Below, in pieces: positions 7,301 through 50,747 of a stretch of 58,711 bases of DNA. A program made the position numbers and the translations under genes. The notes beneath the pieces were generated by a model, which saw only the letters and a list, made by a program, of their open reading frames with translations, had not been told where the DNA came from and made no database searches. Origin of the DNA: a virus (Duplodnaviria; Heunggongvirae; Uroviricota; Caudoviricetes); IMG/VR virus record IMGVR_UViG_2925891887_000002. The stretch is one strand, 5' to 3'. Each line of letters starts with the position of its first letter. The stretch's first letter is position 1.

Positions 7301-7888
7301 TTTGTTCTGCAGCTGGTCTGTGGTGCTGTCCGGCGTCATCCTGCGCATCCGTATATTGAACGGGCGCGGCGGCAGGTTACCCACCACCACCGAGGCCAGA
7401 TACTGCGAGGTGGTTTTGCCCTTAATGGTGATGTCTTTTTCCGTCACCCAGCCACCATTACGCTGGATCTGAACCAGCAGGCGGACTTCCGACGGATTCC
7501 GGTCCCCCTTTGAGGTGGTTTCCACCAGTGCCTGCACGCCGAAGGTAAAGCGCAGACGGTCGATGTTTGCAGACGTAATGGTGCGGGTGATCGGCGTGTC
7601 ATATTTCACTTCCGTACCCAGCACCGTCTCGGAGCCGGAGGATTCAAACCCCTCCGGCGGTGTCTGCTCCTGCTCACCGGCACGGAACACCACCGTGACA
7701 CCGGAGATGTTGGTATTCCCCTCAGTGTCCAGCACCGGCGTACTGTTCAGCAGCACGCTTTTTAATCCATCCACCGGACCTTCAACCGGCCCTTCGCTGA
7801 TGGCATCGATCACACTCAGCAGCTGCGTGGACTTCAGGTTGTCCTTCGCTTCGCGCGGGGTATGCCCCTTACTGCTGCCTTTACCCAT
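4391..7888 (-). CDS. J: Central tail fiber / host specificity protein J
   Basis: 1165 aa; lambda J-like over most of its length, C-terminal part differs from my recollection of lambda J. Confidence 0.95.
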
Positions 7889-20252: not shown

Positions 20253-21012
20253 TCTTCTCCTCCTCTGTTGATTGTCGCAGCCCGGATTCAAATGCTGCAG
20301 CCGCCCAGGCGGGCGGTTTAAGACCGGCTGCACGGCGCTCCATCGTTTCACGGACCTGCTGGGCAAAAATTTCCTGATAGTCGTCACCGCGTTTTGCGCA
20401 CTCTTTCTCGTAGGTACTCAGTCCGGCTTCTATCAGCATCACCGCTTCCTGAACTTCTTTCAGACCATCGATGGCCATACGACCGGAGCCTATCCAGTCG
20501 CAGTTCCCCCAGGCACTGCGGGCTTCCTGAAAACTGAAGCGCGCTTTTGAAGGTAACGTCACCACGCGGCGAACGATGGCCTCTTCCAGCCAGCACAGAA
20601 ACATCTGGCTCGCCTGACGGGATGCGACGAATTTTCGCCGCCCCATAAAGTACGCCCACGACTCGTTCGCACTGGCCCGTGCCGTGGAGTAGCTCATCTG
20701 GGCGTAATTCCGGGAAAGCTGCTCATACGAGACACCCAGCCCGGCAGCAATATACCGCAACAGTGACTGCTCAAACACGGAGTAGCCGTTATCCGTGTCC
20801 TGAGCCGTCTGCAGGTTCAGTGAGTCCCCCGGCATCAGGTGCGGCACTTTTGCGCCTCCCAGCCGGACCGGTGCTGCGGCGTAATACGCGGCAATTTCAC
20901 CAATCCAGCCAGTCAGCCTTTCCCGCTGCTCCTGACTGTTCGCGCCCAGAATAAAATCCATCGCTGACTGCGTATCCAGCTCACTCTCAATGGTGGCGGC
21001 ATACATCGCCTT
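20233..21012 (-). pseudogene. B: Portal protein B, C-terminal fragment
   Basis: MYAATIESELDTQSAMDF...EEEKSDSRAA matches the lambda B C-terminal half; homology stops at the satellite junction. Confidence 0.9.
21001..21012. other. Satellite att core copy, left junction (ATACATCGCCTT)
   Basis: Direct repeat of 31400..31411 with one mismatch. Confidence 0.65.
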
Positions 21013-21086
21013 TATGAAAAGACAGGAAAAAATAAAATTTAAAAACAGTACATTACGAATGCTCAGACCTATCGTTTAAAGGAGTC

Positions 21087-21107
21087 GCAATACACACTGC
21101 AATACAC
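21087..21107 (+). repeat. Two GCAATACAC direct repeats, putative integrase arm-type sites (left end)
   Basis: Same 9-mer occurs three times at the int-proximal end. Confidence 0.5.
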
Positions 21108-21194
21108 GATTATTTATAAGATGAGCGGCATCCGTCATAAAGCTGGTGGATGCTTTTTCTATGCATATATGCACAGTTTTAGTGGGCGTTAATG

Positions 21195-21218
21195 TCGATA
21201 TAGGGATCCCCATATCGA
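21195..21218. repeat. Nested palindrome TCGATATAGGGATCCCCATATCGA
   Basis: 7-bp inverted arms flanking a GGATCC core. Confidence 0.4.
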
Positions 21219-21450
21219 GATTGGATACCTGGCTTTTTTCCGGTTAACCTTTAATCAGGCTGGTGGGCTTTACCTGTTTTGTATGAGTGGTCATCATGAC
21301 CATGTCATAACAAAAACCCCATATTCGTGGTTTTTCTGTGTCGGGCTATTCTGTCGTTGCTGTGCTGATTTGGCTGGTGGGCTGAATCATCATTACGGCG
21401 ATGCAGCTATGTAGACGTTCCGGCCTCCTCAAATTGAGGATTGTGGAAGA

Positions 21451-21810
21451 ATCAATGGGTTAGTCTTACTTTCCCGACATCCCCCAATGGGGGTTTTCGA
21501 AACAATCAATAGCTTAGGCTTACTTCCCCGATTTCCTGCATTGCAGGTTTTCGAAATAATCAATGGGTTAGGCCATCGTGCAATTTTGCACTTTGCCAGC
21601 CAGCGCAATGTCGCGTTATCAGTCCTCAGATGTGAGGGATGTAGCCAGCTTTTCCCCCAGTGGGGGATATCCAGCACCGACGGCTTAACTGTGCGTGCCA
21701 GCACAAGGTAGCCTTGAACTACTTACTGCATCCCATCTTACAGGCCGTGCCTTCCTGCTTAACTTTTTGCAATGCAACAAGTCAGCCAGCGCAATTTTGC
21801 GTTATCGGGA
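21451..21810. repeat. Array of 54-bp tandem repeat units and 12 to 14-bp GC-rich palindromes, several followed by T-runs
   Basis: Units at 21451, 21505, 21559; palindromes at 21481, 21535, 21578, 21654, 21790. Confidence 0.7.
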
Positions 21811-21821
21811 ATATCAGCAAG

Positions 21822-22103
21822 TTACCGCCGCAATCGTTCCGGCTTCTTCCACTGGTAAGTATTTTTCGCGCTCTCCCTCCGTTGTTGAGAACGGCGACGA
21901 TATGCCAGCAACTCAAGGACTCTTGTTCGTATGTTGCGCATATCCACGCCGTTAAGCTCAATACCGTCACGGCGCATCACCTCAGCCACTACACGCACAT
22001 AATTATCTGCGGTCACGCTGTCCGGCTGCGTGGCCTGTTCGTCATGCTGCTTGCTGATTCCACAAGCACGGCGGATTAATCGCAGTATTTCGGATTCAGT
22101 CAT
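21822..22103 (-). CDS. Hypothetical protein (satellite)
   Basis: 93-aa ORF just downstream of the terS-like gene, same strand. Confidence 0.4.
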   Translation of the reverse strand: MTESEILRLIRRACGISKQHDEQATQPDSVTADNYVRVVAEVMRRDGIELNGVDMRNIRTRVLELLAYRRRSQQRRESAKNTYQWKKPERLRR

Positions 22104-22114
22104 AGCGTACTACG

Positions 22115-22642
22115 TTACTTATCTTTATTCGGCTGCAACTTATCCGGTACGTTTCCGGCAGTTTCCATCAGATAATCGGACAGCATCAGCGGTATGTTTT
22201 CGTCAAGTTTTGCGCATGCGTTACGGGCTCTGATAACTTCTTTTTTCAGTCCATCCAGCATAGACGGCTTCATGTCGGGAAACTTCCTTGTCATGGCAAG
22301 CGGCAGGCTGTCCATGATTGAAGAAATCTGACTCGCTAGTTTTGAAATCGCGTAGATGCAAAACTTTGTATCAATCACCTCGCCGCGTTCGCGCTCGTTT
22401 TTAAGTTCCTGCGCTTCCGCCTGGGCCGTCATTAATCTGATTCTTACGCGTAAAAGTTCATCATCATCAATCTCGCCTTTGTCGTCTGTAATCTGGTTAA
22501 TTGCATTGCTAACCCGATTGTCTATTACGCTGGCAACATCATAAAACGCCTCGCGGCCTTTACGTTCAACGGGAGTCACTCCCCACTTGTCGAACGCTGT
22601 CGCACTTACACGGCAGCTTTGCGCCATGTTTTTTTTGTTCAT
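22115..22642 (-). CDS. Small terminase (Nu1)-like protein, candidate packaging-redirection factor
   Basis: C-terminal two thirds align with Nu1 at 34333..34878 (RLxxAQAxAQELKN..); N-terminus divergent; start chosen at MNKKNMAQ. Confidence 0.7.
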   Translation of the reverse strand: MNKKNMAQSCRVSATAFDKWGVTPVERKGREAFYDVASVIDNRVSNAINQITDDKGEIDDDELLRVRIRLMTAQAEAQELKNERERGEVIDTKFCIYAISKLASQISSIMDSLPLAMTRKFPDMKPSMLDGLKKEVIRARNACAKLDENIPLMLSDYLMETAGNVPDKLQPNKDK

Positions 22643-22790
22643 CAGGTGCGATTTCATCAATATCCCCACTTAAGTAATGTTTCAGGTTGGTGTATTGGCT
22701 TTATCTTTTCCTTTTTATTCATAGAGATAGAGCGAACAACAAAACCACCACCAGCACCCGAAAAAGGCTCATAAATAGCGAAAACCCGCG

Positions 22791-22802
22791 AGGTCGCCGC
22801 CC
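22791..22802. other. Satellite cosN (12-nt cohesive-end sequence)
   Basis: AGGTCGCCGCCC with lambda-like flanks on the cosQ side, divergent on the cosB side. Confidence 0.8.
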
Positions 22803-22858
22803 CGTAGCCTACCGGATCGCCGGAAAGGACCCGCCAGCCAGAACGGGCCCTAATTTCA

Positions 22859-23263
22859 TCAACCAATCAACTTATAGCGACCATCCCGTGCATTGCGACG
22901 TACACGCTCAATCTTGAGGCATAGCGCCGCATCTGGCTTTTTTGGGACAGGTACGCGGCAATATTCAGAAGATCGAGGAATATTGTTTATCCAGTCGATC
23001 ACTTCACTTAAATACCAGGCCTTACGCCCTTCCGTAACCTGTACGCGTTCGGGGAACTCTCCGCGAGCCTCAAGGTTTAGCAATGTGCGACGGCTAAGGG
23101 TAGTAAGTTCCATCACCTGATTCATATCAACAAGGCGTTCACTTAAACGCATTTTGTCAGCAATAGCCTTTAATTCCTCTACTGCTGGATCCGGATACAT
23201 CATTTCGGCAATTGGCTTAAGGTCATTGTAATGATTCTGCATTGTATCCCCCTTTACACACAA
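22859..23263 (-). CDS. AlpA-like HTH protein with N-terminal extension
   Basis: 134-aa ORF; C-terminal half has an AlpA/excisionase-like motif. Confidence 0.5.
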   Translation of the reverse strand: MCVKGDTMQNHYNDLKPIAEMMYPDPAVEELKAIADKMRLSERLVDMNQVMELTTLSRRTLLNLEARGEFPERVQVTEGRKAWYLSEVIDWINNIPRSSEYCRVPVPKKPDAALCLKIERVRRNARDGRYKLIG

Positions 23264-23595
23264 GCCAGCGGCTGAACAGAAATACCTGAGCCAACAAACG
23301 CGGCAACCTTTGCCGACAGTTCTTTTACAGACTCAGGCCAGTTCAGAGCATCAACATTTAAAACACCTGTCTTATAAACCTGTGCCTGTGTTTTTTTCGC
23401 TGTGTCGATTTGTACAGCGGAAACATAAACCGCTTTACCTACGCTCGAACCATCCCATACCACCAGTGCACCTGTTGCATCTTCCTGCATCAGTGGCGTA
23501 AATGCAGGAATTACCCCTTTATTAGCTGAAAATATCCCCAGCGTAGTCACCAGTGCTTCAGTGCCAGCCATGAGTTCAGTGTAATGAGTAGCCAT
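23254..23595 (-). CDS. Head decoration protein D homologue (satellite)
   Basis: 113 aa; conserved blocks shared with D at 18591..18923 (TPLM..WDG, K(S/T)G..WPE). Confidence 0.7.
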   Translation of the reverse strand: MATHYTELMAGTEALVTTLGIFSANKGVIPAFTPLMQEDATGALVVWDGSSVGKAVYVSAVQIDTAKKTQAQVYKTGVLNVDALNWPESVKELSAKVAAFVGSGISVQPLACV

Positions 23596-23604
23596 TGCTC
23601 CCCC

Positions 23605-24651
23605 TTAGCCAATGCGAACGGTAACAAAACGATTGATGCGGGCCGGTATTGGCTGTGGTGCTGAATGTGTCTGCACATATTCAATAGCCGGATCACCAGG
23701 CACAATATAGTTTTTCGGTGCAAGTTCGGCTTTAGTCAGCCCCATTCGGATTAGCTCCGGATCCTGAATACCGCCATAGGCGACAATCCCCTGAAGAGCC
23801 GTATTGCCAAGCACCATCAAATCAGGATCAAGGAAATGTTTTTCTGTTCCGTCCTCGTCGGTATAACGCCCGCTGTAAACAACAATCGCAACATCGCCCA
23901 TATACCCTTTAAAACTCACCGAATCACCAAGGTCTTTAAGGGCCGTTTCCAGTTCGGAATTAGAACCACGACGGGTATCCAAAGCCTCTTTTATCGCTCT
24001 GAATGAACGGTATTTCTTCCATACATTACCACCCATAATGATGATATTAGTGACGCCCTCACTAAATTCTGCGTAGCTCTCAATATCATCATTTGGATCA
24101 AAAGTTTCTTTATCCTTACCTGACCACTCAGTACCGCCAGACTGAGTGATGATATTTTGTGGTTTTATATTCCAGTCCAGCTCATAACGTTCAATACCAT
24201 CGCCCTCAATGATATTTTTCCCCGTTGTGATTGCCTGAACAGCAAGCCATTCAATACGTGCACGAATAGCTTTAGCCTGATTTACAATCGCCTGTTTAAC
24301 TTTAATATTACGCGCCCCAAAAGCATTGTATTGCTCAGGTGACACACCAGCAGGGCGCACAGCTAACTTATTTGGATCAATGCTGCTTTTCGGCTTCATA
24401 TAACCTGGACGAATTGTTTTTGATTCGTATCCCTCATCTCGTGAAACTTTACTGCCCACCATAGGAGAGCAAAACGCCGCGATCGGGATATTTGGATCGT
24501 CGATCGTATCAAGAATAATGTCTCTCGATTCAAACATTACCGAGCGAGTGAAAAACAAACTGGTAAACAACGCATTTAATTTTTTTTGCACATCTTCAGC
24601 ATTAGCCACCTGCACAAGCTGTGTAGGCGAATATAAATCAACCATACGCAT
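23605..24651 (-). CDS. Major capsid protein E homologue (satellite)
   Basis: Aligns with E along its length (ITQSGGTEWS, DPxDDIE, LDTRRGSNSELETA, AIVVYSG); start chosen at MRMVDLY; ORF extends upstream to 24819. Confidence 0.75.
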   Translation of the reverse strand: MRMVDLYSPTQLVQVANAEDVQKKLNALFTSLFFTRSVMFESRDIILDTIDDPNIPIAAFCSPMVGSKVSRDEGYESKTIRPGYMKPKSSIDPNKLAVRPAGVSPEQYNAFGARNIKVKQAIVNQAKAIRARIEWLAVQAITTGKNIIEGDGIERYELDWNIKPQNIITQSGGTEWSGKDKETFDPNDDIESYAEFSEGVTNIIIMGGNVWKKYRSFRAIKEALDTRRGSNSELETALKDLGDSVSFKGYMGDVAIVVYSGRYTDEDGTEKHFLDPDLMVLGNTALQGIVAYGGIQDPELIRMGLTKAELAPKNYIVPGDPAIEYVQTHSAPQPIPARINRFVTVRIG

Positions 24652-24862
24652 CCTCTTTGCATTCATTAAAAATAATTGTGGATATATGCTATCACCGATA
24701 TTTGTCATGCGAATACATGCAACCGAGTGCAATGTTGTATAAAGTTTTGGGATAACAACTTCAGCGCGGATAATTAGTGTTAATATCTTCACTCCCTTTG
24801 GTCGGGATTTATGTAGCATGCCGGAAAATTTATTTTTTTCCGGCCTTTTTTATTGGCAATAT

Positions 24863-25312
24863 TTAAAACGGAATATCATCTCCCCATTGCTCATTTTCTC
24901 CCACTGGTGGATGGCTTCCTTGCTGATCTGCCTGTTGTTTTGCTCTGTTCAGTGCGTCAGTAGCCTGACCCTGTTGACCTTTTTTGCCGCCCGGTCGCAC
25001 CGTTCGCGCACTGATTACGCTGTCTGCGATAACCTGCCAGCCCTGCCGCGTTTCACCGTTCTGGCCTGTCCACTGTCTTACCTGCATGTTACCCGCCACG
25101 CTCACCAGTTCGCCTTTGTGGTGTTTTGCCAGTGCGTCGGCCTGTCTGCCAAACGCCAGGACGGATAACCACATCGTCGCCGTTCCGTCATCTGCCTGGC
25201 TGCACGGAAGGGGGACCGCCATACTAGCCATCGTCATTTGTGTACCCTTGCTGGTGGTCTTTAACTGCGGGTCAGCCACCAGCCGCCCGTAAGCCGCTAT
25301 CTGTGCTGTCAT
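24863..25312 (-). CDS. ssb: Single-stranded DNA-binding protein
   Basis: 149 aa, OB-fold-like, ends with the SSB acidic tip DDIPF. Confidence 0.7.
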   Translation of the reverse strand: MTAQIAAYGRLVADPQLKTTSKGTQMTMASMAVPLPCSQADDGTATMWLSVLAFGRQADALAKHHKGELVSVAGNMQVRQWTGQNGETRQGWQVIADSVISARTVRPGGKKGQQGQATDALNRAKQQADQQGSHPPVGENEQWGDDIPF

Positions 25313-25560
25313 GCTGTCTGCTCTCCAGTTTTAACGTTGATGGTTGTCACCTGTTCCGCTTCGGCAATCTCCCGTTCTGTCAGCGTGGCAAAGTTTGCCG
25401 CCGTCGTGGTCATGAATGCGCTTATCAGTTCGGGGTGTGCTTTCGCGTATCCTTCCCCAGCGTGGCGGTCTATCGTTCTGATTGCCACCTTTAAGGCGTG
25501 CTCTGTCATGTCTAACGCTTTATATTTTGGCGCTGTCTTATCTCTGGTTTTTCTGGTCAT
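25309..25560 (-). CDS. Hypothetical protein (satellite)
   Basis: 83-aa ORF between ori and ssb. Confidence 0.4.
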   Translation of the reverse strand: MTRKTRDKTAPKYKALDMTEHALKVAIRTIDRHAGEGYAKAHPELISAFMTTTAANFATLTEREIAEAEQVTTINVKTGEQTA

Positions 25561-25765
25561 TCCTCACTGCTCCCCACTTTTACTACCCACTTTTTGAAAT
25601 TACCCAACGTCTCCCCACTTCTTTTTTTTGTGATTCTAACGTGATGTTTTTCAATGTGTTTTTTATTCCCCACTTTTTGGGGTATATACAGGTGGGAAAG
25701 TGGGGAATCACGTTTCAATTTTGTTAAATTCCCCACACTCCCCACTTTTACTACCCACTTTTTAC
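25561..25765. repeat. Putative satellite replication origin with CCCCACT iterons
   Basis: At least eight CCCCACT(T) motifs in both orientations plus AT-rich stretches, directly 3' of the rep gene. Confidence 0.6.
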
Positions 25766-27177
25766 AGTGGGCGCACGTCATCACCGTCAATAGCAATAAC
25801 GCCATCACCTTCCAGCTTGTACAGCCAGCGCCGGAAGTGTTTCATCTCATACCCCAGCTTTTTCATATCATCGCGCAACAACGGAATAGTGCATTTATCT
25901 CCGCGCTGTGTGCGTGAACGGATACAGCCCCATAGCGCGGCATGATTCTCCGTCTTGTTCCCGGCTTCCTCGATGCGCTCCAGTTCAACGGGTGGGCGCG
26001 GCTTATCCACAACAACCAGCGACGTGATTAACTCCCCGTCAGTGTCGGTAAAAAGCTCCACCACACGTAAATCGTATGCGGCCTCTTTCAGTTCCTCCGC
26101 GTCCTTCATTTTTGTGCAGGAGATAACCAGGGCTTCACTGTCTGCACCTTCACGGCGAATACGGTATTCAGCGTCCAGAGATGCACGAAATGCACTGGAA
26201 CCACGCGCCCCCTTTGTTTCATCCTTGCCGGAATGGTGAACCACCAGCACCGTGGCCCCTGTGCGGCGTTTCAGTTCGTCACATCCACGGATAAACGCCC
26301 CCATATCCCGCGCGTCATTTTCATCATTACCGCCAAAGCAACGCGCCAGCGTATCAAGAATAATCATGCGTACCGGTTTACCCGTTTCCCGTTCAACCTG
26401 GCGGGAAGCGATGACCATTTCATCAACATCAAGCGGGACTGCCGGAAAAATCGGGCGGTTTACCAGGTACAGATTTTCCACCCGTTCATCATTAACGATT
26501 TCCCATGCCTTGATACGGCGGGGGACACCAATGCCACCTTCACCGACAACATACATCACCGAACCATGCGCCACCCTGCGGCCTCCCCAGTGACGGCCAG
26601 TGGCAACATGACACGCCCAGGAACACGCGAGGAACGATTTATAGGAACCGCTCGCGCCGTATGTGCTGCACAATGAATTAGCCGGAATCACGCCCTTAAC
26701 GACATAATCAAGCTGTGTGTCGTACCCTGCAGATCCAATGCTCATTGGTAGCGTGGTTTTTCGCTGGCTGTATTGCTCGTCAGTAAGTATTTCCCCGCGC
26801 TCTGCCTGTTCGCGGATCCGTTGCAGGTAGTCGTGCCAGTTCTCCAGCTTCTGGCTGTGCATTCCATCAGGGTAATAATTCGCATCCCGTACACCTGCCG
26901 CCGCCAGCTTTTGCCCGATAGCATTAATATTTGACGGCTTGATGTGGCCTGCCTTGTACAGCCGGACACAATAGCGACCATCGTCGATAATTTTCAGGTC
27001 TGCCAGTTCGTCAAGCTGGCTGTCTCCCAGCCATACAGGCGGGACGTTATCACCAGCAAGTCGCCCGTCCTGTTCCTGCCACTGTTTCGCGTGCGCCCAG
27101 GCATCACTACCCGCAAAAATAATGACTTCGGTCATTTTGTCGTGTGGCTGTTTTTTTAAGTTCGGTGCCAGTTTCAT
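25762..27177 (-). CDS. Replication initiator ATPase (RepA/AAA_25-like helicase with primase-like N-terminus)
   Basis: 471 aa; Walker A GASGSYKS; ILDTLARCF and LVVHHSGK motifs. Confidence 0.7.
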   Translation of the reverse strand: MKLAPNLKKQPHDKMTEVIIFAGSDAWAHAKQWQEQDGRLAGDNVPPVWLGDSQLDELADLKIIDDGRYCVRLYKAGHIKPSNINAIGQKLAAAGVRDANYYPDGMHSQKLENWHDYLQRIREQAERGEILTDEQYSQRKTTLPMSIGSAGYDTQLDYVVKGVIPANSLCSTYGASGSYKSFLACSWACHVATGRHWGGRRVAHGSVMYVVGEGGIGVPRRIKAWEIVNDERVENLYLVNRPIFPAVPLDVDEMVIASRQVERETGKPVRMIILDTLARCFGGNDENDARDMGAFIRGCDELKRRTGATVLVVHHSGKDETKGARGSSAFRASLDAEYRIRREGADSEALVISCTKMKDAEELKEAAYDLRVVELFTDTDGELITSLVVVDKPRPPVELERIEEAGNKTENHAALWGCIRSRTQRGDKCTIPLLRDDMKKLGYEMKHFRRWLYKLEGDGVIAIDGDDVRPL

Positions 27178-27473
27178 TTTTTGCCCCTGAATGCGTTAAT
27201 CATGTTTTTCATTTTCTGAATATTTGCCCGTGCCTTTGCGTTGCTGGTGGGCTGTTTGCGTGGTGTGGCCTGTATCAGTGAAAAATCACGCCGGAACTGA
27301 TAAGCAGGCATCACGCAGTCATAGCCGTACCCATCACGGCGGTAAGTAACGCACCGCCCCGCCACGCTTTTAATCGTTACCGTGCCACCGTAGTTATCCC
27401 GGAAAATATCGCCGGGGCGGATTTCAGGCCGAGGGAGACCACTGGCAGTAAAGCCAGAATTTTTCTGTTTCAT
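27174..27473 (-). CDS. Hypothetical protein
   Basis: 99-aa ORF. Confidence 0.4.
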   Translation of the reverse strand: MKQKNSGFTASGLPRPEIRPGDIFRDNYGGTVTIKSVAGRCVTYRRDGYGYDCVMPAYQFRRDFSLIQATPRKQPTSNAKARANIQKMKNMINAFRGKK

Positions 27474-27479
27474 GTTTTT

Positions 27480-27698
27480 TTACTCCAGAGGCAGATTTTT
27501 AGCGGCGAGTTCAATATCAGATGTCAGAGAAACCTGTGTATTTGCCAGGTCTAACAACAAAGAAATAAGAATTTCCTCTCTGCTATCGGATTCATCGGTG
27601 CTAAGGCTGTTCATCCACATATTGACGACTTCCCTGATTTTTTTCGCAGAGTGCAGGGCTTCAAATGCCAGGTCTTCAATATCATGTTTATTTCGCAT
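27480..27698 (-). CDS. Hypothetical small protein
   Basis: ORF from internal Met MRNKHDIEDL. Confidence 0.3.
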   Translation of the reverse strand: MRNKHDIEDLAFEALHSAKKIREVVNMWMNSLSTDESDSREEILISLLLDLANTQVSLTSDIELAAKNLPLE

Positions 27699-27900
27699 AA
27701 TCGCCCCCGCGTAACTGGTCTGCACTAACACCCGATTTAGTGAGCATTTCAGAAAATCCCGCAAGAGTGCTGATAAATTCGTTTTCCATTAAACGGCACT
27801 GGCATTTAACCCGGCCTTTTTCCAGATACACCAGTACGCGCCACGTATAATCTGACGGCACATTCAGCACTACAGATAAGTGCGCTTCATTATTATTCAT
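27688..27900 (-). CDS. Hypothetical small protein
   Basis: 70-aa ORF. Confidence 0.35.
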   Translation of the reverse strand: MNNNEAHLSVVLNVPSDYTWRVLVYLEKGRVKCQCRLMENEFISTLAGFSEMLTKSGVSADQLRGGDYAK

Positions 27901-28129
27901 GGCTCACCACCTCCATATCAGCCATGATAATTTTGCTGGCCTCATTCAGTGCCATATCAGCACTAAGTTGCATTACAGCCAGTGAATGAGGAACGAAAGC
28001 CCCGGCATATTCTGTTTCACTGGTAGCGTGCTTATGCGCCCTGTCCGCGATAACAGAAATATCAATCAGCGCATCAATCAGTGTTTTGATTGCTTCGGCG
28101 GCTGCGTCCGGACGGGTGTTATTGCACAT
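27893..28129 (-). CDS. Hypothetical small protein
   Basis: 78-aa ORF. Confidence 0.35.
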   Translation of the reverse strand: MCNNTRPDAAAEAIKTLIDALIDISVIADRAHKHATSETEYAGAFVPHSLAVMQLSADMALNEASKIIMADMEVVSHE

Positions 28130-28325
28130 GGTGCACCCCCTGACGAATACGGGCGGCGAATACCATCACGCAGCCAGCCGGTGATTGCTGACGGGCTTCC
28201 TGTTCGCTGGTGGCCTCAATGGTAATCACGCGCGGTTGTGCCGTACTCAGGGCGATAAAACGCCAGATGTATTTATTCAGGTTGTGCGAGCCCCGCCCTT
28301 GCGGGTGTGTGGTATGATTTCTCAT
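28119..28325 (-). CDS. Hypothetical small protein, first gene of the leftward satellite operon
   Basis: 68-aa tail of a longer spurious ORF, starting at ATG 28323..28325 next to the operator region. Confidence 0.35.
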   Translation of the reverse strand: MRNHTTHPQGRGSHNLNKYIWRFIALSTAQPRVITIEATSEQEARQQSPAGCVMVFAARIRQGVHHVQ

Positions 28326-28422
28326 AGCTACCTCGATACTGTTGCTATCGTTGGTGGTTAGAAGCCCGGTTAGTGTTAGCGCACTGCCGGGTTTCGTCGT
28401 TTCTGCACCTTGCACCAACAAG

Positions 28423-28474
28423 GTGTTGAACACCAATTTAAACCCAGGTGTTGAACACGTCAAGTGTTGAACAC
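28423..28474. promoter_or_regulatory. Three direct repeats of GTGTTGAACAC in a divergent promoter region (putative operators)
   Basis: Repeats at 28423, 28448 and 28464 between divergent small genes. Confidence 0.55.
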
Positions 28475-28524
28475 TTGTTTTTTTTCCTGCATACTGCATT
28501 TGTTTTTTGTGAGGGGTACACAAC

Positions 28525-28704
28525 ATGGCGACAAAAGCAGTAAACGCAAAATCACAAACAGTTGCGGCAAGGGTTCCGCATGAAGTTATGAACAATGTTG
28601 AGGCGGTAAAAATGCCTGGTGAAAGTACAGGGCAGTTTGTAACAGCAGCATTAAAGCGAGAAGTTGAATACCGCCAGCGACGCAAGGCTAAAGAGCAAGA
28701 ATAA
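28525..28704 (+). CDS. Small putative DNA-binding regulator
   Basis: 59-aa ORF (not in the track) with GAGGGG Shine-Dalgarno 8 nt upstream. Confidence 0.45.
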   Translation: MATKAVNAKSQTVAARVPHEVMNNVEAVKMPGESTGQFVTAALKREVEYRQRRKAKEQE

Positions 28705-28761
28705 TCACTATCAGCGCTGTGGTGTGAGGTACTCCGGCGCATTGCTTTACAGGTCGGCACT

Positions 28762-28971
28762 ATGAGCAAAAAATACCTATCCACTGAAGAGATTTTCGCA
28801 GAACAACGAAGATTGCTTTTACAGAGCATTGTTGCACGCCAGAAAGAAAAGGCACACGCTAAACAAATGCCACCAAATACAGAACCAGCGCCTACAAAAT
28901 TTGCGCTTGATGAGTTTCTCAATAAACAGCCCCGGGTAATGAAAGCTAACAGGAACCGCCCACCAGGCTGA
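28762..28971 (+). CDS. Hypothetical small protein
   Basis: 69-aa ORF downstream of the regulator. Confidence 0.4.
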   Translation: MSKKYLSTEEIFAEQRRLLLQSIVARQKEKAHAKQMPPNTEPAPTKFALDEFLNKQPRVMKANRNRPPG

Positions 28972-29067
28972 TCACATTGCCCACCAGCCGCAAATGTGGC
29001 ATTGTTGGTGATGCTTTTGTTTTCCCTTGTTCCCACTGGCGACCCTTTTGCGGTCGCCTTTGTTTTG

Positions 29068-29646
29068 TCACTGAATGCGGTTACCAAAGTAAAACTCAGG
29101 CTGATATTCACGTATCAGCGTTTTTTCTTCTTCCTCCAGCTCACGCTTTTTGCGCTTACATGCCTGTAGCTCCCTCCCCTTCTCGCTGGCACTTATTTGA
29201 TATTGCTCTTTACGGCGGGAAAAATCCTGTAATGCACCCCACGGGATACCATAAGCCCCCGTTTTTCTGATACCCGGTATCACATTTCTGAATACCCAGT
29301 TACTGAAACGATGAGCAAATGTGCCAGGCGTCGTTGCTTTGCGGCTGCGGGCTATTAGTTTGTAGAAACCTGACTCAGAGATAATTCTCATATTCTGATT
29401 TCCTCCTGGGGTGTAAGTTAAATTTACTCCCTTTTCATCATCATCAAGCATCTGCAACGCCGTACGCGAATTGGTTAGTTCCAGCACAGCACAAACATCT
29501 TTTGCAACAAACCACGGATCGCCGTTCAGATACACCACACGAACGTTCACACTATCAAAGCGCAGAACGACGAGATCACGAATATCGCAGAATTTTTTCA
29601 CTGGACGAGCGTACCCCTTGCCCGTCACGGCAATATTTTTATTCAT
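29068..29646 (-). CDS. Bro-N domain protein (antirepressor-like)
   Basis: 192 aa; N-terminal motif VRVVYLNGDPWFVAKDV typical of Bro-N. Confidence 0.65.
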   Translation of the reverse strand: MNKNIAVTGKGYARPVKKFCDIRDLVVLRFDSVNVRVVYLNGDPWFVAKDVCAVLELTNSRTALQMLDDDEKGVNLTYTPGGNQNMRIISESGFYKLIARSRKATTPGTFAHRFSNWVFRNVIPGIRKTGAYGIPWGALQDFSRRKEQYQISASEKGRELQACKRKKRELEEEEKTLIREYQPEFYFGNRIQ

Positions 29647-29663
29647 CGCGTTTTTACCTTATA

Positions 29664-29690
29664 GACAAAAAACCCCTCGTGATGAGGGGC
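29664..29690 (-). terminator. Rho-independent terminator downstream of alpA
   Basis: CCCCTC..GAGGGG hairpin followed by a T-run on the minus strand. Confidence 0.55.
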
Positions 29691-29702
29691 ATTATTTACT
29701 GG

Positions 29703-29960
29703 TTATTGCTGTTTTGTTTTTCCAGGTTTCCATCCAGGATGCCACTCACCACGGATCCATGCCTGAACCTCTGAAAGTCGATACCCTGCAGCACGTTCAC
29801 CGATCTTGATACGTCGCGGGAATTTACCTGCCTGCTCCATTTTCCAGCGTGTTGAGTTTGCCAGCGTGGTAAGTGCTATGCACTCTTTTTCACGAATGAA
29901 CCGATCAATGTCCTTCATTGTGCGCAAATCGTTTTCATCAACAAGAGAATAAATTGCCAT
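29703..29960 (-). CDS. alpA: AlpA-family regulator / excisionase
   Basis: 85 aa, AlpA motif, directly downstream of int. Confidence 0.75.
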   Translation of the reverse strand: MAIYSLVDENDLRTMKDIDRFIREKECIALTTLANSTRWKMEQAGKFPRRIKIGERAAGYRLSEVQAWIRGEWHPGWKPGKTKQQ

Positions 29961-29961
29961 A

Positions 29962-31203
29962 TCACACCACCTCTTTATTAAGCTCGATAACGTTGTTGTT
30001 AAATCCTGCTATCGTATTAAGGTAATTAACCCATATATTAAGCACCTCAAGTTTTTTCTTTATATGCCTGCTTTTATTGTAAACACCAGCAACCCCTTTC
30101 ACTTTATGACCTAAAAGAAGTTCGACAATATAAGGATCCGCCCCCATATCATTAAGCGTAGTGGAAAATGTGCGCCTGAAATCATGTATGCACCACAAGC
30201 CATTAGTATCATGACCAAGACGCCTGCATATTCTGTTTGCAGCCCCTGTTATTGTCGCCCTTTGCAAAGCACAACCGACAACATAACCGCGATTTTTTGT
30301 TTCTGCGTAAAGATTAACGATCCATTGTTTTATTCCGTCAGGAACAGGCCTTACTATAGCCTCCTTGTTTTTGCTGTGCTCTTTTGGGACTGTCCATACC
30401 CAGTTTTTTAAATCCCATTCGTCCCAGGTGGATAGCCTCGCCTCCTGCTGTCGGCAACCAAACACCAGGCAGATAACCATTATTCTTCGGTTATATATTG
30501 ATGACAGAGTTAGCAAATTATTACCGTAAGCATAAGACCATACATCAGCGGTTTCATTGATATTAAGAACGCGATCCCTTATACCGGATGAGCGCCCGAC
30601 ATAACTTACGTTAATATCTCCAAAGGGATCGCACGCGATGTATTGCCTGACGCGACAAAAACGCAACGCCTGTTTGATATCAAGAAAAATTGCACCAGAC
30701 ATAACAGGCGCATTTTTTTTGATCCTGTCAAAGACGGTAAGCCATGTGTGTAATTTGCACTGTTCTATAGCCATATCACCGATATAGGGGAAGATATGCT
30801 TTTCAAATCGTTTTATTAAATATTCATGCTCTTTTCTGGCTGTTGTGGCGTGATTGTCGTACCAGTAAAACAGCGCATCCCTTACGGTCACTGGTTGCAT
30901 AGTTTTTTCGGCAGCAAGTTTTATTTGCCTGCGGGGGTCCAGATTTTCAGCCAGCCATTCACGGCACTGATCACGCATGCGCCTGGCCGTTGCAAGAGAC
31001 ATGTCAGGATAGCGACCAAGTGTAAGCCATACCGGAGGGGATTCCCTGCCACCAAGACGATAGTAAAAAACAAAGCTGATCCCCCCAACCATGCTTACAC
31101 GCACAGACAACCCGCGCCCATCCGCTATTGTTTTTTGTTTGTCCTGCCGTTTTCCGACAAGACTCTTTAACAGTTTGTCACTGAGTTTGTTTTCAATAGC
31201 CAT
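29962..31203 (-). CDS. int: Tyrosine integrase (P4/PICI-type)
   Basis: 413 aa; C-terminal HDFRRTF and LLGH..Y catalytic motifs. Confidence 0.85.
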   Translation of the reverse strand: MAIENKLSDKLLKSLVGKRQDKQKTIADGRGLSVRVSMVGGISFVFYYRLGGRESPPVWLTLGRYPDMSLATARRMRDQCREWLAENLDPRRQIKLAAEKTMQPVTVRDALFYWYDNHATTARKEHEYLIKRFEKHIFPYIGDMAIEQCKLHTWLTVFDRIKKNAPVMSGAIFLDIKQALRFCRVRQYIACDPFGDINVSYVGRSSGIRDRVLNINETADVWSYAYGNNLLTLSSIYNRRIMVICLVFGCRQQEARLSTWDEWDLKNWVWTVPKEHSKNKEAIVRPVPDGIKQWIVNLYAETKNRGYVVGCALQRATITGAANRICRRLGHDTNGLWCIHDFRRTFSTTLNDMGADPYIVELLLGHKVKGVAGVYNKSRHIKKKLEVLNIWVNYLNTIAGFNNNVIELNKEVV

Positions 31204-31223
31204 TAAAAGCCCTCAAGAGATTT

Positions 31224-31274
31224 GCAATACACACCCATCCCGATCGCCAATTTGCAATACACATTGCAATACAC
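31224..31274 (+). repeat. Three GCAATACAC direct repeats, putative integrase arm-type sites (int-proximal)
   Basis: Copies at 31224, 31254 and 31266. Confidence 0.5.
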
Positions 31275-31399
31275 AAAACCGCGAAAAACTGGAAGGGTGA
31301 TGAACGGTCATCAAAAGCATGGAAAACGACATTCCAGACGCAGCAAGGGTTTCAGTGGAGTTGGCGAACGATGCGGGCAACTACGGTGAGATGATAGAC

Positions 31400-34332
<2,933 letters not shown>

Positions 34333-46826: not shown

Positions 46827-47543
<717 letters not shown>

Positions 47544-47593
47544 TGATAAGTCGCCGAGATGCTCGTAGAGCATACAGCGATGCAGGAGAATTT

Positions 47594-48028
47594 ATGGCAC
47601 TTAATTTAGAAAGAATATCTTTTATAACCCCATTTGATAGCAGCGAAGAACCCAACCAACCGACGCTTAATTTTACATGCAATGAATTTCCTGCGCGGCT
47701 ATCAATTGATTTCAGGGTTGGTATGATCGGGTTGAAACCAAATTCAAGATATAATTTGGGTATTATGGTAATCCCCGCGCACCTAATTATAAAAAAAGGT
47801 GAGGAAATTCAATTCCCTGACGGCTCTTCGGAATCAGTTTCACTTTTCATCGATACGAAAGATAGCCATTTTGAAACAGGGGTTGGCGGACAGGTAATAG
47901 TAACATTGAAAGAAATTAGGGTCCCAGCTAAAGGGCTGTATAGTGTTATAGGGAGATTGCAAGATAATGAAGACCCTAAAAATGAACTTCATAAAAATGA
48001 ATCATTTTTCACCGTAGAGCTATTATGA
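47594..48028 (+). CDS. Hypothetical protein, first gene of the cassette in the rexA position
   Basis: 144 aa from ATG 47594 with AGGAGA Shine-Dalgarno (track ORF starts at 47540); no resemblance to RexA. Confidence 0.6.
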   Translation: MALNLERISFITPFDSSEEPNQPTLNFTCNEFPARLSIDFRVGMIGLKPNSRYNLGIMVIPAHLIIKKGEEIQFPDGSSESVSLFIDTKDSHFETGVGGQVIVTLKEIRVPAKGLYSVIGRLQDNEDPKNELHKNESFFTVELL

Positions 48029-48466
48029 GTGACGACAGCAATTTAAATAATCATGGAAAGCAAGACACCAACATATCTGAAAGCCGGAGGTTGAAGGTTG
48101 TTGGCGGTTCCGATTTTGAGGCTGAATTTGATAATTCTCCCACCAAGGTGCAAAATAATTACATAAAACCGCCACAAACGGAGGAAGAAGTGGGAACGAT
48201 CAGCAGAGAGGAACTTGATGCTCGCTTAGCTGCTAATAAAGCAGAGATGGAGTCTATTGCTTCTTCCATTAGGGCTGACATGGCTCTATCTCGTGAAAGC
48301 GTTAATGTCCAATTTGCATCACTTAATGCGGCCATAAGCTCTCTATCGTCCAAGATCGATGGAAAAATGGATAGCGCTGCTGGCGATTTAAAAGCAATTA
48401 ATGGGAGATTCGGTGATGCTGCCAACTTACTGATTTAGTGTATGATGGTGTTTTTGAGGTGCTCCA

Positions 48467-48742
48467 GTGGCTTCTGTTTCTATCAGCTGTCCCTCCTGTT
48501 CAGCTACTGACGGGGTGGTGCGTAACGGCAAAAGCACCGCCGGACATCAGCGCTATCTCTGCTCTCACTGCCGTAAAACATGGCAACTGCAGTTCACTTA
48601 CACCGCTTCTCAACCCGGTACGCACCAGAAAATCATTGATATGGCCATGAATGGCGTTGGATGCCGGGCAACTGCCCGCATTATGGGCGTTGGCCTCAAC
48701 ACGATTTTACGTCACTTAAAAAACTCAGGCCGCAGTCGGTAA
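48467..48742 (+). CDS. insA: IS1 InsA
   Basis: 91 aa, InsA match. Confidence 0.9.
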
Positions 48743-49164
48743 CCTCGCGCATACAGCCGGGCAGTGACGTCATCGTCTGCGCGGAAATGGACGAACAGTG
48801 GGGCTATGTCGGGGCTAAATCGCGCCAGCGCTGGCTGTTTTACGCGTATGACAGGCTCCGGAAGACGGTTGTTGCGCACGTATTCGGTGAACGCACTATG
48901 GCGACGCTGGGGCGTCTTATGAGCCTGCTGTCACCCTTTGACGTGGTGATATGGATGACGGATGGCTGGCCGCTGTATGAATCCCGCCTGAAGGGAAAGC
49001 TGCACGTAATCAGCAAGCGATATACGCAGCGAATTGAGCGGCATAACCTGAATCTGAGGCAGCACCTGGCACGGCTGGGACGGAAGTCGCTGTCGTTCTC
49101 AAAATCGGTGGAGCTGCATGACAAAGTCATCGGGCATTATCTGAACATAAAACACTATCAATAA
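48661..49164 (+). CDS. insB: IS1 InsB frame (expressed as InsAB' by -1 frameshift)
   Basis: InsB match; A6C slippery motif TTAAAAAACTC at about 48716. Confidence 0.85.
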
Positions 49165-49422
49165 GTTGGAGTCATTACCGGGAGATTCGAAGGAATTCAA
49201 GGACAAATAACAGGGGTTAATACCGCAATTAGTGGTGTTCAGTCGGGTATTTCTATACGATTAGCCATTTTTAGTGTCATTATCGCTGTAATAGTTGCGA
49301 TTCCCGGGCTGGTATCAGCTTTAAAGTCAGACCACGCACCTTTGCAACAGCCTTCCACTTTGCAAGCGCCGCCACAAAATACCCAGCCAACAGACAACAA
49401 AAAAATCACTCCCCAGCATTAA

Positions 49423-49448
49423 CCCGGCCTCAGCGCCGGTTTTTCTTT
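49423..49448 (+). terminator. Putative terminator after the immunity-region cassette
   Basis: CCGGC..GCCGG hairpin followed by TTTTT. Confidence 0.45.
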
Positions 49449-49605
49449 GCCTCACGATCGCCCCACCTAAAAACACATAACCAATTGTATTTATTGGAAA
49501 ATAAATAGATACAACTCACTAAACAACGCAATTCTGATCTCTCCTTACATCGCCGAGGCAATACACTCACTCGAAAAAATAAATCCATATAAAAAACATA
49601 CAGAT

Positions 49606-49666
49606 AACCATTTGCGGTGATAAAATATCTCTAGCGGTGTTGACACAAATACCACTAGCGGTGATA
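49606..49666. promoter_or_regulatory. Left operator OL3-OL2-OL1 with PL
   Basis: 17-bp sites at 49606, 49626 and 49650 resembling lambda OL. Confidence 0.8.
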
Positions 49667-49708
49667 CTTAGCCCGTCAGCAGGACGCACTAACCACCATT
49701 GAAGGTGA

Positions 49709-49849: not shown

Positions 49850-50747
<898 letters not shown>

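What the first reader, a model, noticed from the sequence alone, without database searches (positions are those of the whole stretch)
47594..49422. Two-gene cassette in the rexAB position of the immunity region, inactivated by IS1: candidate lysogen-expressed defence module
Directly downstream of cI, where lambda carries rexA and rexB, there are two translationally coupled genes unrelated to Rex as far as I can tell. The first is a 144-aa soluble protein with a strong Shine-Dalgarno. The second is a 206-aa protein with a coiled-coil-like region and a single C-terminal transmembrane anchor; IS1 truncates it at codon 129, with a clean 9-bp target duplication. Position, co-transcription with cI and membrane anchoring suggest an exclusion or abortive-infection system, and the IS1 hit may mark counter-selection.
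Basis: partly seen in the sequence, partly recalled or inferred. Interest (0 to 1): 0.75.

Follow-up and report, generated by a model that had tools for sequence, protein, structure and literature searches.

The report
IS1-broken two-gene cassette replacing rexAB
A lambda-type prophage carries, exactly where lambda has its rexAB exclusion genes, an uncharacterised gene pair (small soluble protein plus membrane-anchored coiled-coil protein) that recurs behind prophage repressors across enteric bacteria and is a plausible but untested anti-phage module; this copy is knocked out by IS1.

Summary
cI (46830-47543) is followed by a 144-aa gene (47594-48028) and, overlapping it by ATGA, a 206-aa gene. 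IS1 (768 bp, 48412-49179, 9-bp duplication GGGAGATTC) splits the second gene after codon 129. Homology to lambda stops at the cI stop codon and resumes at the Timm terminator, so this is a clean replacement of rexA-rexB.

The pair is not new as sequence. It is intact in phages HK244 and HK542 and in about 50 of 5426 complete E. coli genomes, always annotated hypothetical (PHROG 5893 and 5820, unknown function). It matches no Pfam, NCBIfam or PADLOC family and is unrelated to RexA/RexB.

New here:
- Gene 2 belongs to an Enterobacterales-wide family: variable N-terminus, conserved heptad coiled coil, strongly conserved C-terminal transmembrane helix, Pro/Gln tail.
- In 14 of 15 distinct arrangements it follows a prophage repressor and a small partner gene.
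- The partner comes in at least four unrelated classes that track the N-terminal type of gene 2.
- Gene 1 is a confident Ig-like beta-sandwich.

The best reading is a sensor/regulator plus membrane effector, working like RexAB. This is inferred, not shown. The counter-selection idea is unproven, because the prophage is already defective and IS1 may simply have a hotspot here.

The parts
46830..47543 (+). cI repressor, 237 aa, 97% identical to lambda CI; first gene of the presumed PRM operon
   Evidence: annotated LexA family protein WP_001274762
47585..47588 (+). Shine-Dalgarno GGAG for gene 1
   Evidence: read directly from the sequence
47594..48028 (+). gene 1: 144-aa soluble protein with an Ig-like/E-set beta-sandwich fold (PHROG 5893; WP_001207141)
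48025..48411 (+). gene 2, 5' part (codons 1-129): variable N-terminal region with the LKVVGG motif, and most of the coiled coil
48403..48411 (.). left copy of the 9-bp target-site duplication GGGAGATTC
48412..49179 (+). IS1 (IS1A type), 768 bp, with terminal inverted repeats, insA (48467-48742) and insB' (48661-49164)
49180..49188 (.). right copy of the 9-bp target-site duplication GGGAGATTC
49189..49422 (+). gene 2, 3' part (codons 130-206 plus stop): last heptads, conserved TM helix (about residues 150-174), Pro/Gln-rich periplasmic tail
49424..49449 (+). Timm-like intrinsic terminator (CCGGCCTCAGCGCCGG followed by a T-run); lambda homology resumes at 49420
   Evidence: annotated as Timm in the HK542 record
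49626..49670 (+). OL operators and the PL promoter (TTGACA-17-GATACT at 49640-49668), marking the far boundary of the cI-N interval
49850..50173 (+). antiterminator N gene

Best explanation
This is a lysogen-expressed accessory cassette that has replaced rexA-rexB in the cI operon of a lambda-immunity prophage.

Gene 2 encodes a tail-anchored inner-membrane protein. Its N-terminal roughly 150 residues lie in the cytoplasm: a variable, disordered 40-105-residue head followed by a roughly 85-residue parallel heptad coiled coil. The coiled coil runs into one strongly conserved TM helix. A short Pro/Gln tail with a conserved 'QPIIIQVP' motif lies in the periplasm.

Gene 1 encodes a small cytoplasmic Ig-like beta-sandwich protein.

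I propose that the small protein binds the variable N-terminal head of the membrane protein and acts as its specificity or regulatory subunit (sensor or inhibitor). The conserved coiled coil plus TM core would be the effector. On a phage-derived trigger it would oligomerise and compromise the inner membrane, aborting the infection. That is RexA/RexB logic built from unrelated parts.

In this window the system is dead. IS1 removes the last heptads, the TM helix and the tail.

Shown: the anatomy, the exact slot, conservation of the pair and of its position behind repressors, partner swapping that tracks the N-terminus, and the fold of gene 1.

Inferred: co-transcription with cI, the physical interaction, the membrane-damaging activity, and any anti-phage role.
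For: - Exact replacement of rexAB between the cI stop and Timm. No terminator-like site lies between cI and gene 1.
- The same slot in other lambdoid prophages holds proven defence systems: RexAB, BstA and HigBAC (literature).
- Fourteen of 15 distinct arrangements, among about 20 loci fetched, show repressor, small partner, gene-2 homologue on one strand. The repressors are unrelated (S24-type of 231-253 aa; short HTH of 129-157 aa). The hosts are E. coli, Cedecea, Klebsiella, Enterobacter, Salmonella, Yersinia and Pectobacterium.
- In Rac-like prophages the pair lies between the repressor and kilR.
- Partners fall into at least four unrelated classes: beta-sandwich; CxxC...CxxC zinc-ribbon-like; a 98-99-aa class; a 97-aa Yersinia class. 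Each class goes with its own type of gene-2 N-terminus, while the coiled coil and TM core stay 45-70% identical.
- The most conserved stretch of gene 2 is the pre-TM and TM segment (G145, Q147, S148, G149, S151, L154, I161 invariant). This argues that the TM helix does more than anchor.
- A 21%-identical gene-1 homologue sits in a quite different context, as a moron in a myophage baseplate cluster. It is again overlapped by a gene for a protein with a disordered head, a coiled coil and a C-terminal TM helix.
- Low GC (38-44% against 50% for the window) is typical of a moron.
- Gene 2 carries four independent lesions in complete E. coli genomes while gene 1 stays identical. This fits gene 2 being the costly effector.
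Against: - No sequence or structural similarity to any characterised defence, toxin, holin or exclusion protein. PADLOC gives no hit at E <= 1 for these two proteins. For homologues it gives only sub-threshold coiled-coil hits (LeoC 1.3e-3, LmuB 1e-4). PDB and NCBIfam give only weak coiled-coil matches (SmhB 0.02, MakE 0.035).
- The gene-1 fold is a generic binding module (TM-score about 0.5 to RhoGDI and the Wzt carbohydrate-binding domain), so it says nothing specific.
- The gene-2 monomer model is low-confidence (pLDDT 58). No oligomer or complex model could be run.
- A single TM helix per chain is unlike RexB, which is reported to have four TM helices (my own knowledge).
- One homologue, from Xenorhabdus, lacks both the N-terminal head and a partner.
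- There is no experimental phenotype. No paper mentions these proteins.
Confidence: 0.45

Rival explanations
1. Superinfection exclusion at the envelope rather than abortive infection. The membrane protein, through its conserved TM helix and periplasmic 'QPIIIQVP' tail, blocks genome entry of incoming phages by interfering with an inner-membrane entry factor or with the tape-measure/ejection proteins. The cytoplasmic partner only stabilises or regulates it.
For: Gene 2 has a single-pass inner-membrane topology with a conserved periplasmic motif and a conserved TM helix. It is presumably expressed in lysogens from the repressor operon. It occupies the place where Rac-like prophages carry sieB (the Rac gene order is from my own knowledge).
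Against: About 150 of its 206 residues are cytoplasmic. The part that diversifies, the N-terminal head and the partner, is cytoplasmic, whereas an entry blocker should diversify on the periplasmic side. Known entry blockers do not need a soluble cytoplasmic partner (my own knowledge).
Confidence: 0.15
2. A toxin-antitoxin-like or prophage-selfish module without a primary anti-phage role. Gene 2 is a holin-like or viroporin-like membrane toxin and gene 1 is its upstream, translationally coupled neutraliser. The module stabilises the prophage, or tunes induction and lysis timing, as has been proposed for RexA/RexB in the lysogeny-to-lysis transition.
For: The gene order is antitoxin-like, with an ATGA overlap. 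Partners are exchangeable as in mix-and-match toxin-antitoxin systems. All four lesions in complete genomes hit gene 2 and spare gene 1. The architecture resembles XhlA-type tail-anchored coiled-coil lysis proteins, by analogy only. Non-exclusion roles for Rex are documented (bioRxiv 2021.04.19.439022, listed).
Against: Neither protein matches a known toxin, antitoxin or holin family (XhlA E = 0.63 even for the short analogue). Gene-1 frameshift alleles exist with gene 2 apparently intact in draft data (P0038), which a strict antitoxin would not tolerate. Many toxin-antitoxin systems are themselves defence systems, so this rival overlaps the main explanation.
Confidence: 0.15
3. A lysogenic-conversion or otherwise host-directed accessory function unrelated to phages (for example envelope stress, colonisation or virulence), or a function not yet imaginable from sequence. 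The position behind cI merely provides lysogen-level expression.
For: Morons expressed in lysogens include non-defence genes such as lom and bor. There is no homology to any defence protein. The Ig-like fold and coiled coil are generic.
Against: Every characterised cargo of this precise slot that I found in the literature is an exclusion or defence system. Rapid partner swapping with a conserved core is the pattern expected under an arms race.
Confidence: 0.2

Closest known systems
Lambda RexA/RexB exclusion system
   Same: Identical genomic slot: between the cI stop and Timm, upstream of OL/PL. Two genes on the cI strand, one soluble protein and one inner-membrane protein. Presumably expressed in lysogens.
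   Different: No sequence similarity. RexA is 279 aa against a 144-aa Ig-like beta-sandwich. RexB is 144 aa and reported to have four TM helices (my own knowledge), against a 206-aa tail-anchored coiled coil with one TM helix. The pair is not a member of the Rex family.
Hypothetical genes c105/c104 of phages HK542 and HK244 (GenBank EF120458, EF120457, JQ086373)
   Same: The same two genes at 98.5% DNA identity, intact, in the same slot of wild lambda-immunity phages, with Timm annotated.
   Different: Those copies are uninterrupted and are annotated only as hypothetical proteins. I found no functional study.
BstA (prophage BTP1) and HigBAC (lambdoid prophage of E. coli NT1F31), defence cargo downstream of the repressor
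   Same: The same 'downstream of the repressor, sharing its promoter' locus logic. This locus is described as a variable defence hotspot.
   Different: BstA is a single protein that localises to sites of phage DNA replication. HigBAC is a toxin-antitoxin-chaperone system. Neither is homologous to this pair, and neither has a membrane component of this kind.
XhlA-type tail-anchored coiled-coil phage membrane proteins (Pfam PF10779), with ElaB/YqjD-type tail-anchored proteins as a further analogy
   Same: The architecture: cytoplasmic N-terminal coiled coil followed by a single C-terminal TM helix. The 108-aa protein paired with a distant gene-1 homologue looks like this class.
   Different: Gene 2 gives no XhlA hit at E <= 1, and the 108-aa analogue reaches only E = 0.63. 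Gene 2 is longer, has a periplasmic tail and a variable head, and sits in immunity regions rather than lysis cassettes. This is resemblance only. The ElaB/YqjD comparison is from my own knowledge and was not tested.
Two-component prophage defences of mycobacteriophages Sbash (gp30/31) and Butters (gp30/31)
   Same: Soluble plus membrane protein pairs encoded near the immunity region and expressed in lysogens. Recalled from my own knowledge, not tested here.
   Different: Different host phylum. The membrane partners there are multi-pass. No sequences were compared here.

Membership tests
RexAB (lambda exclusion system) | RexA-homologous soluble protein | tested here: not met
   BLASTP of gene 1 against lambda RexA gives only chance hits (E >= 17). 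PADLOC has no hit at E <= 1.
RexAB (lambda exclusion system) | RexB-homologous polytopic membrane protein | tested here: not met
   Gene 2 gives no BLASTP hit to RexB. It has one TM segment only.
RexAB (lambda exclusion system) | Location between cI and Timm, on the cI strand, in the PRM/PRE transcription unit | tested here: met
   Lambda homology breaks at 47544 and resumes at 49420. No terminator-like site lies between cI and gene 1, and a Timm-like hairpin follows gene 2. Transcription itself was not measured.
RexAB (lambda exclusion system) | Exclusion of T4 rII and other phages with membrane depolarisation | not testable with these tools
   Needs plaque and membrane-potential assays with the intact cassette.
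IS1 insertion sequence | 768-bp element with terminal inverted repeats, insA/insB' reading frames and a 9-bp target duplication | tested here: met
   48412-49179 is 768 bp. The ends GGTGATGCTGCCAACTTACTGAT and GGTAATGACTCCAACTTATTGAT are inverted. InsA is 91 aa and InsB' 167 aa. GGGAGATTC is duplicated. RefSeq annotates it as IS1A.
PHROG 5893 / PHROG 5820 (phage protein families of unknown function) | Full-length profile match | tested here: met
   Gene 1: 3.6e-50 over 3-143 of 144. Gene 2: 2.7e-76 over 1-201 of 206.
Any catalogued anti-phage system (PADLOC-DB v2.0.0) | Significant match of either protein, or of homologues and partner classes, to a defence-system model | tested here: not met
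   No hits at E <= 1 for the two proteins. Homologues give only weak coiled-coil matches (LeoC 1.3e-3, LmuB 1.1e-4, PDC-S06 7e-3). Newer DefenseFinder models could not be run.
Pfam Baculo_PEP_C (PF04513) | Score above the gathering threshold (38 bits) | tested here: not met
   20.8 bits, E = 4.2e-4, over residues 78-163. The best score among three homologues scanned was 26.3 bits. This is a compositional, heptad-like resemblance.
XhlA / holin-like tail-anchored lysis proteins | Pfam XhlA match; lysis-cassette context | tested here: not met
   Gene 2 gives no XhlA hit at E <= 1. The 108-aa analogue reaches E = 0.63. The context is an immunity region, not a lysis cassette.
Type II toxin-antitoxin pair | Upstream antitoxin that neutralises a toxic downstream product; toxicity of the toxin alone | not testable with these tools
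   The gene order and ATGA overlap are compatible. No toxin or antitoxin family match was found. Expression assays are needed.

The most novel reading that the evidence does not exclude
The gene-2 family is the conserved effector of a previously unrecognised, modular class of prophage defence systems in Enterobacterales. It would be a tail-anchored coiled-coil 'viroporin-like' protein whose TM bundle is unleashed by exchangeable small cytoplasmic sensors (Ig-like, zinc-ribbon-like and other classes) docking on its variable N-terminal head. The system would be carried as standard cargo of repressor operons, in the rexAB or sieB slot, of many unrelated immunity types.
Probability: 0.35. Interest if true: 0.7.

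Novelty: new variant of a known kind. Interest (0 to 1): 0.5.

Why it matters
If the intact cassette is an exclusion system, it would add a defence family built from parts with no known relatives to the repressor-linked cargo of lambdoid prophages. Its design would also be testable: a constant membrane effector with swappable small sensors.

It is about half as common as rexAB in complete E. coli genomes (about 50 against 99 of 5426), and many rexAB carriers are laboratory lambda lysogens. The wider family extends to Klebsiella, Enterobacter, Salmonella, Yersinia, Pectobacterium, Pantoea, Xenorhabdus and Morganella. It could therefore influence phage susceptibility of clinical and veterinary isolates, which is relevant to phage therapy.

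Intact natural templates (phage HK542, strain MDR_56) and natural knock-outs (two IS1 alleles, a deletion, a frameshift) exist side by side, so the genetics is easy. For this particular window the practical message is modest: the copy is a pseudogene in an already defective prophage.

Tried and rejected
- Homology to known families. Pfam, NCBIfam and PADLOC scans of both proteins, of four alternative partner proteins and of diverse gene-2 homologues gave nothing above threshold.
- Weak hits to alpha-pore-forming toxins (MakE 0.035; SmhB 0.02), to LeoC (1.3e-3) and to haemagglutinin or sigma-1 coiled coils. I treat these as coiled-coil composition, not homology.
- Relation to RexA/RexB: rejected by BLASTP.
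- Fold search of gene 1. Only generic E-set/Ig-like neighbours came up: RhoGDI, Wzt carbohydrate-binding domain, CBM and adhesin repeats at TM-score about 0.5, plus uncharacterised phage proteins at 0.67-0.71. No functional inference is possible.
- The gene-1 profile also collects cumulative weak matches in giant He_PIG/PKD Ig-repeat proteins. This supports the fold only.
- The gene-2 monomer model was too poor (pLDDT 58) to be worth a fold search.
- Literature. No paper mentions the protein accessions, locus tags or PHROG numbers. Degnan et al. 2007, the source of the HK244 and HK542 records, is not held. The HepS paper is unrelated.
- Counter-selection.
- I looked for a direct repeat of at least 12 bp flanking the satellite-like insert in the portal gene and found none. 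The two portal fragments only share a short imperfect overlap at the protein level.
Full report
**1. Observation**

- cI is 46830-47543. It is 97% identical to lambda CI.
- A 50-nt spacer follows, with GGAG at 47585-47588.
- Gene 1 is 47594-48028 (144 aa). It has no hydrophobic segment.
- Gene 2 begins at 48025 in an ATGA overlap with the gene 1 stop.
- Gene 2 is interrupted after codon 129 by a complete 768-bp IS1 (48412-49179). The element has canonical inverted ends and insA/insB'.
- IS1 is flanked by a perfect 9-bp duplication, GGGAGATTC.
- Deleting IS1 and one duplication copy restores a 206-aa ORF ending at 49422.
- A terminator-like hairpin and T-run at 49424-49449 follow immediately. 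The OL/PL region is at about 49626-49670 and N at 49850-50173.
- No terminator-like site lies between cI and gene 1.

BLASTN against lambda shows homology stopping at window 47544, the base after the cI stop. It resumes at 49420, the gene 2 stop and Timm. The 1398 bp of lambda that carry rexA-rexB are therefore replaced cleanly by this 1107-bp cassette, not counting IS1.

**2. Identity of the window and of the cassette**

The window is E. coli 22AR0322 (NZ_CP195467.1) 3260907-3319617, and the annotated coordinates coincide.

The cassette is not new as sequence.
- It is intact, at 98.5% identity, in the wild lambda-immunity phages HK244 and HK542. Those records annotate the genes as hypothetical (c105/c104) and annotate Timm after them.
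- These are the only hits among 50,697 phage records, both by DNA and by tblastn.
- Among 5426 complete E. coli genomes, 51 carry it at 98% DNA identity or better. A further 14 carry only a diverged gene-2 core (about 74% DNA identity) with a different partner.
- For scale, rexAB is in 99 genomes, many of them laboratory lambda lysogens.
- In E. coli the cassette sits behind at least three different LexA-family/S24-type repressors. In one case a DUF3024 gene lies between the repressor and gene 1.

**3. The proteins**

Neither protein matches Pfam above threshold, nor NCBIfam or PADLOC. Both match PHROG families of unknown function: 5893 at 3.6e-50 and 5820 at 2.7e-76. Neither resembles RexA or RexB.

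*Gene 1.*
- It has about a dozen close relatives in the 90%-clustered database. About 15 further proteins of 137-153 aa turn up in an exhaustive profile search of 1.84 billion representatives.
- With that alignment AF2 gives a confident all-beta model (pLDDT 86.7, pTM 0.80, eight strands).
- Foldseek places the model among Ig-like/E-set sandwiches: RhoGDI, the Wzt carbohydrate-binding domain, a CBM and adhesin repeats, at TM-score about 0.5. Uncharacterised phage proteins reach 0.67-0.71.
- The profile also picks up weak cumulative matches in giant Ig-repeat proteins.
- Gene 1 is therefore a small cytoplasmic binding module, not an enzyme.

*Gene 2.*
- It belongs to a family of about 60 clusters at 90% identity. 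Every source that names an organism gives an Enterobacterales genus: Escherichia, Klebsiella, Enterobacter, Leclercia, Cedecea, Salmonella, Yersinia, Pectobacterium, Pantoea, Xenorhabdus or Morganella.
- The N-terminal 40-105 residues vary, apart from a short 'L-K/R/Q-V/A-V' motif.
- A conserved region begins at 'SREEL'. From about residue 100 its heptad periodicity is clean (IDGKMDS, VDGDIKA, INGKFEG, IQGQITG, INTAISG, IQSGIST) and runs into the TM helix.
- The pre-TM and TM stretch is the most conserved part of the protein (G145, Q147, S148, G149, S151, L154 and I161 are invariant).
- The tail is Pro/Gln-rich with a conserved 'QPIIIQVP' motif.
- The AF2 monomer shows one long helix (61-140) and the TM helix (150-174). 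Confidence is low, as expected for an obligate oligomer.
- Without a signal peptide, the likely topology is N-terminus inside and tail in the periplasm. This is an inference.

**4. Context in other genomes**

I inspected about 20 loci, which reduce to 15 distinct arrangements. Fourteen show the order repressor, small partner, gene-2 homologue on one strand, followed by early-left genes. The repressors are unrelated: S24-type proteins of 231-253 aa, and short HTH or CI-like proteins of 129-157 aa with YdaS/YdaT-type neighbours.

The most abundant member is P0081, indexed in 187 blocks of the assembly collection. It lies in Rac-like prophages between the repressor and kilR. From my own knowledge of the Rac gene order, that is where sieB sits.

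The one exception is a short Xenorhabdus homologue of 146 aa with no variable head. It has no partner and follows an Arc/antirepressor pair, next to a RelB/YafQ toxin-antitoxin pair.

**5. The partner is exchangeable, and it co-varies with the head of gene 2**

| Partner class | Size | Found in | Gene-2 N-terminal head |
|---|---|---|---|
| A: gene-1 beta-sandwich family | 141-150 aa | E. coli, Cedecea, K. oxytoca; distantly Salmonella | 'LKVVGGSDF'-type in E. coli, Klebsiella and Cedecea; diverged in K. oxytoca and Salmonella |
| B: CxxC...CxxC, zinc-ribbon-like | 100-120 aa | Enterobacter, E. coli strain 181.1, two metagenome-derived loci | 'LKAVPNCGSG...'-type in Enterobacter and E. coli; different in the two other loci |
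| C | 98-99 aa | Pectobacterium, Rac-like Enterobacteriaceae prophages, one metagenome-derived locus | long heads of 95-105 residues, not alignable to one another |
| D | 97 aa | Yersinia | its own type |

These classes show no significant similarity to one another. Each class has its own kind of gene-2 head: closely related pairs share a head type, and no alignable head type crosses classes. The simplest reading is that the partner binds that head.

There is an independent hint that the pairing is ancient. A 21%-identical gene-1 homologue lies as a moron inside a myophage baseplate cluster. It is overlapped by 8 nt by a 108-aa protein with the same plan as gene 2: a disordered head, a coiled coil, and a C-terminal TM helix 'LFGAIIAVALGLAGLMA' (compare 'IFGVIIAVVVALPGLIS'). 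Sequence similarity is not significant, and the Pfam XhlA match is only E = 0.63.

**6. Mechanism**

*Shown:* an accessory pair fixed behind prophage repressors; a constant membrane-anchored coiled-coil core; a swappable cytoplasmic partner; low GC typical of a moron (38-44% against 50%).

*Inferred:* co-transcription with the repressor; partner-to-head binding; and a membrane-directed effector activity gated by the partner. That is RexAB logic built from unrelated parts.

The literature describes this very slot as a mosaic accessory and defence hotspot that holds RexAB, BstA and HigBAC. This raises the prior for defence.

Three rival readings remain open:
- an entry-blocking exclusion protein;
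- a toxin-antitoxin-like or induction and lysis-timing module;
- a host-directed lysogenic-conversion function.

Nothing computed here links the proteins to a characterised defence family. The only matches are weak, coiled-coil-type hits.

**7. The IS1 insertion and 'counter-selection'**

The window's allele is IS1A with the duplication GGGAGATTC. It is also seen as about 128-aa contig-end fragments in 53 draft contigs (P0002). This fits one lineage in which assemblies break at IS1.

A second, independent IS1 insertion lies 30 bp upstream in strain EM18-18-42. It is IS1B, has the duplication AGCGCTGCT, and is in the same orientation.

Two further independent lesions hit gene 2:
- a 306-bp in-frame deletion with 8-bp microhomology, in strains 90-3040 and 2013C-3492;

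Gene 1 is identical (WP_001207141) in all of these genomes. That pattern is suggestive of a costly gene 2, but it is not significant: (621/1056)^4 is about 0.12.

Several other points weaken it.
- Gene-1 frameshift alleles exist elsewhere (P0038).
- Several of the affected prophages are visibly decayed.
- The cassette is AT-rich, and IS1 is reported to prefer AT-rich targets (my own knowledge).
- This window's prophage is already defective, because its portal gene is split by a satellite-like insert of about 10.4 kb.
- Two same-orientation insertions 30 bp apart fit a local hotspot as well as they fit selection.

I therefore cannot tell whether the insertion reflects counter-selection.

**8. 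Verdict**

The genes have been known since 2007 as unnamed ORFs replacing rexAB. Their function remains unknown, and this copy is a pseudogene.

The comparative picture assembled here is new as far as I could find: a conserved tail-anchored coiled-coil effector, interchangeable partners that co-vary with its head, and near-invariant linkage to repressors across Enterobacterales. It makes the intact cassette a good, cheap experimental target.

- Interest: 0.5.
- Novelty: a new variant of a known kind, namely repressor-linked two-component exclusion modules. This is conditional on a phenotype being found.

Noticed in passing
window ~20233-32233 (insert ~21016-31399), '-' strand: The prophage's portal gene is split into two annotated fragments (20233-21015 and 31400-32233) by an insert of about 10.4 kb. 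The insert encodes a tyrosine integrase, HTH regulators, a BRO-N protein, an Icd-like protein, a RepA-family helicase and SSB. It also has its own major capsid protein, head-decoration protein and small terminase. It looks like a capsid-forming phage satellite (PICI-like) integrated into the portal gene of a potential helper, which leaves the prophage defective. No direct repeat of 12 bp or more was found at the junctions; there is only a short imperfect overlap at the protein level (…AIVKAIY / IKAMYAAT…).
   Followed up: partly
L002 (NZ_CP063473.1, E. coli EM18-18-42) 6857-7633, compared with window 48412-49179: A second, independent IS1 insertion (IS1B, duplication AGCGCTGCT) lies 30 bp upstream of the window's site, in the same gene and the same orientation. 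This could be an IS1 hotspot, or repeated selection against gene 2.
   Followed up: partly
L012 (NZ_CP027459.1, E. coli 90-3040) 3482-3796; the same allele in strain 2013C-3492: A 306-bp in-frame deletion, bounded by 8-bp microhomology, removes residues about 10-111 of gene 2. A 104-aa product remains that keeps the last heptads, the TM helix and the tail. It might be an inactive remnant or a short functional form. Compare the naturally headless 146-aa Xenorhabdus homologue.
   Followed up: no
L011 (NZ_CP027766.1, E. coli 2013C-3342) 2632-2973: In a heteroimmune prophage a DUF3024 gene is inserted between the repressor and gene 1. The repressor-proximal slot can therefore stack several accessory genes.
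   Followed up: no
L029/L030 3001-3751: A distant gene-1 homologue (21% identity) and an overlapping 108-aa tail-anchored coiled-coil protein form a moron inside a myophage baseplate gene cluster, between the E217_GP41-like and Apex/sheath-initiator genes. The headless Xenorhabdus gene-2 homologue (L027) lies just upstream of the same type of tail cluster.
   Followed up: partly
L024-L026 3320-3475: In Rac-like prophages a 51-aa, very hydrophobic ORF (probably two TM segments) lies between the repressor and the partner/gene-2 pair. Its relation to the module is unknown.
   Followed up: no
window 50166-50669, '-' strand: A 167-aa ORF (WP_001278766, hypothetical) lies antisense and immediately downstream of N. 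It has a coiled-coil-like N-terminal half and a C-terminal Cys-rich, zinc-ribbon-like motif (CAQC...CHRC). It is another uncharacterised accessory gene in the early-left region.
   Followed up: no
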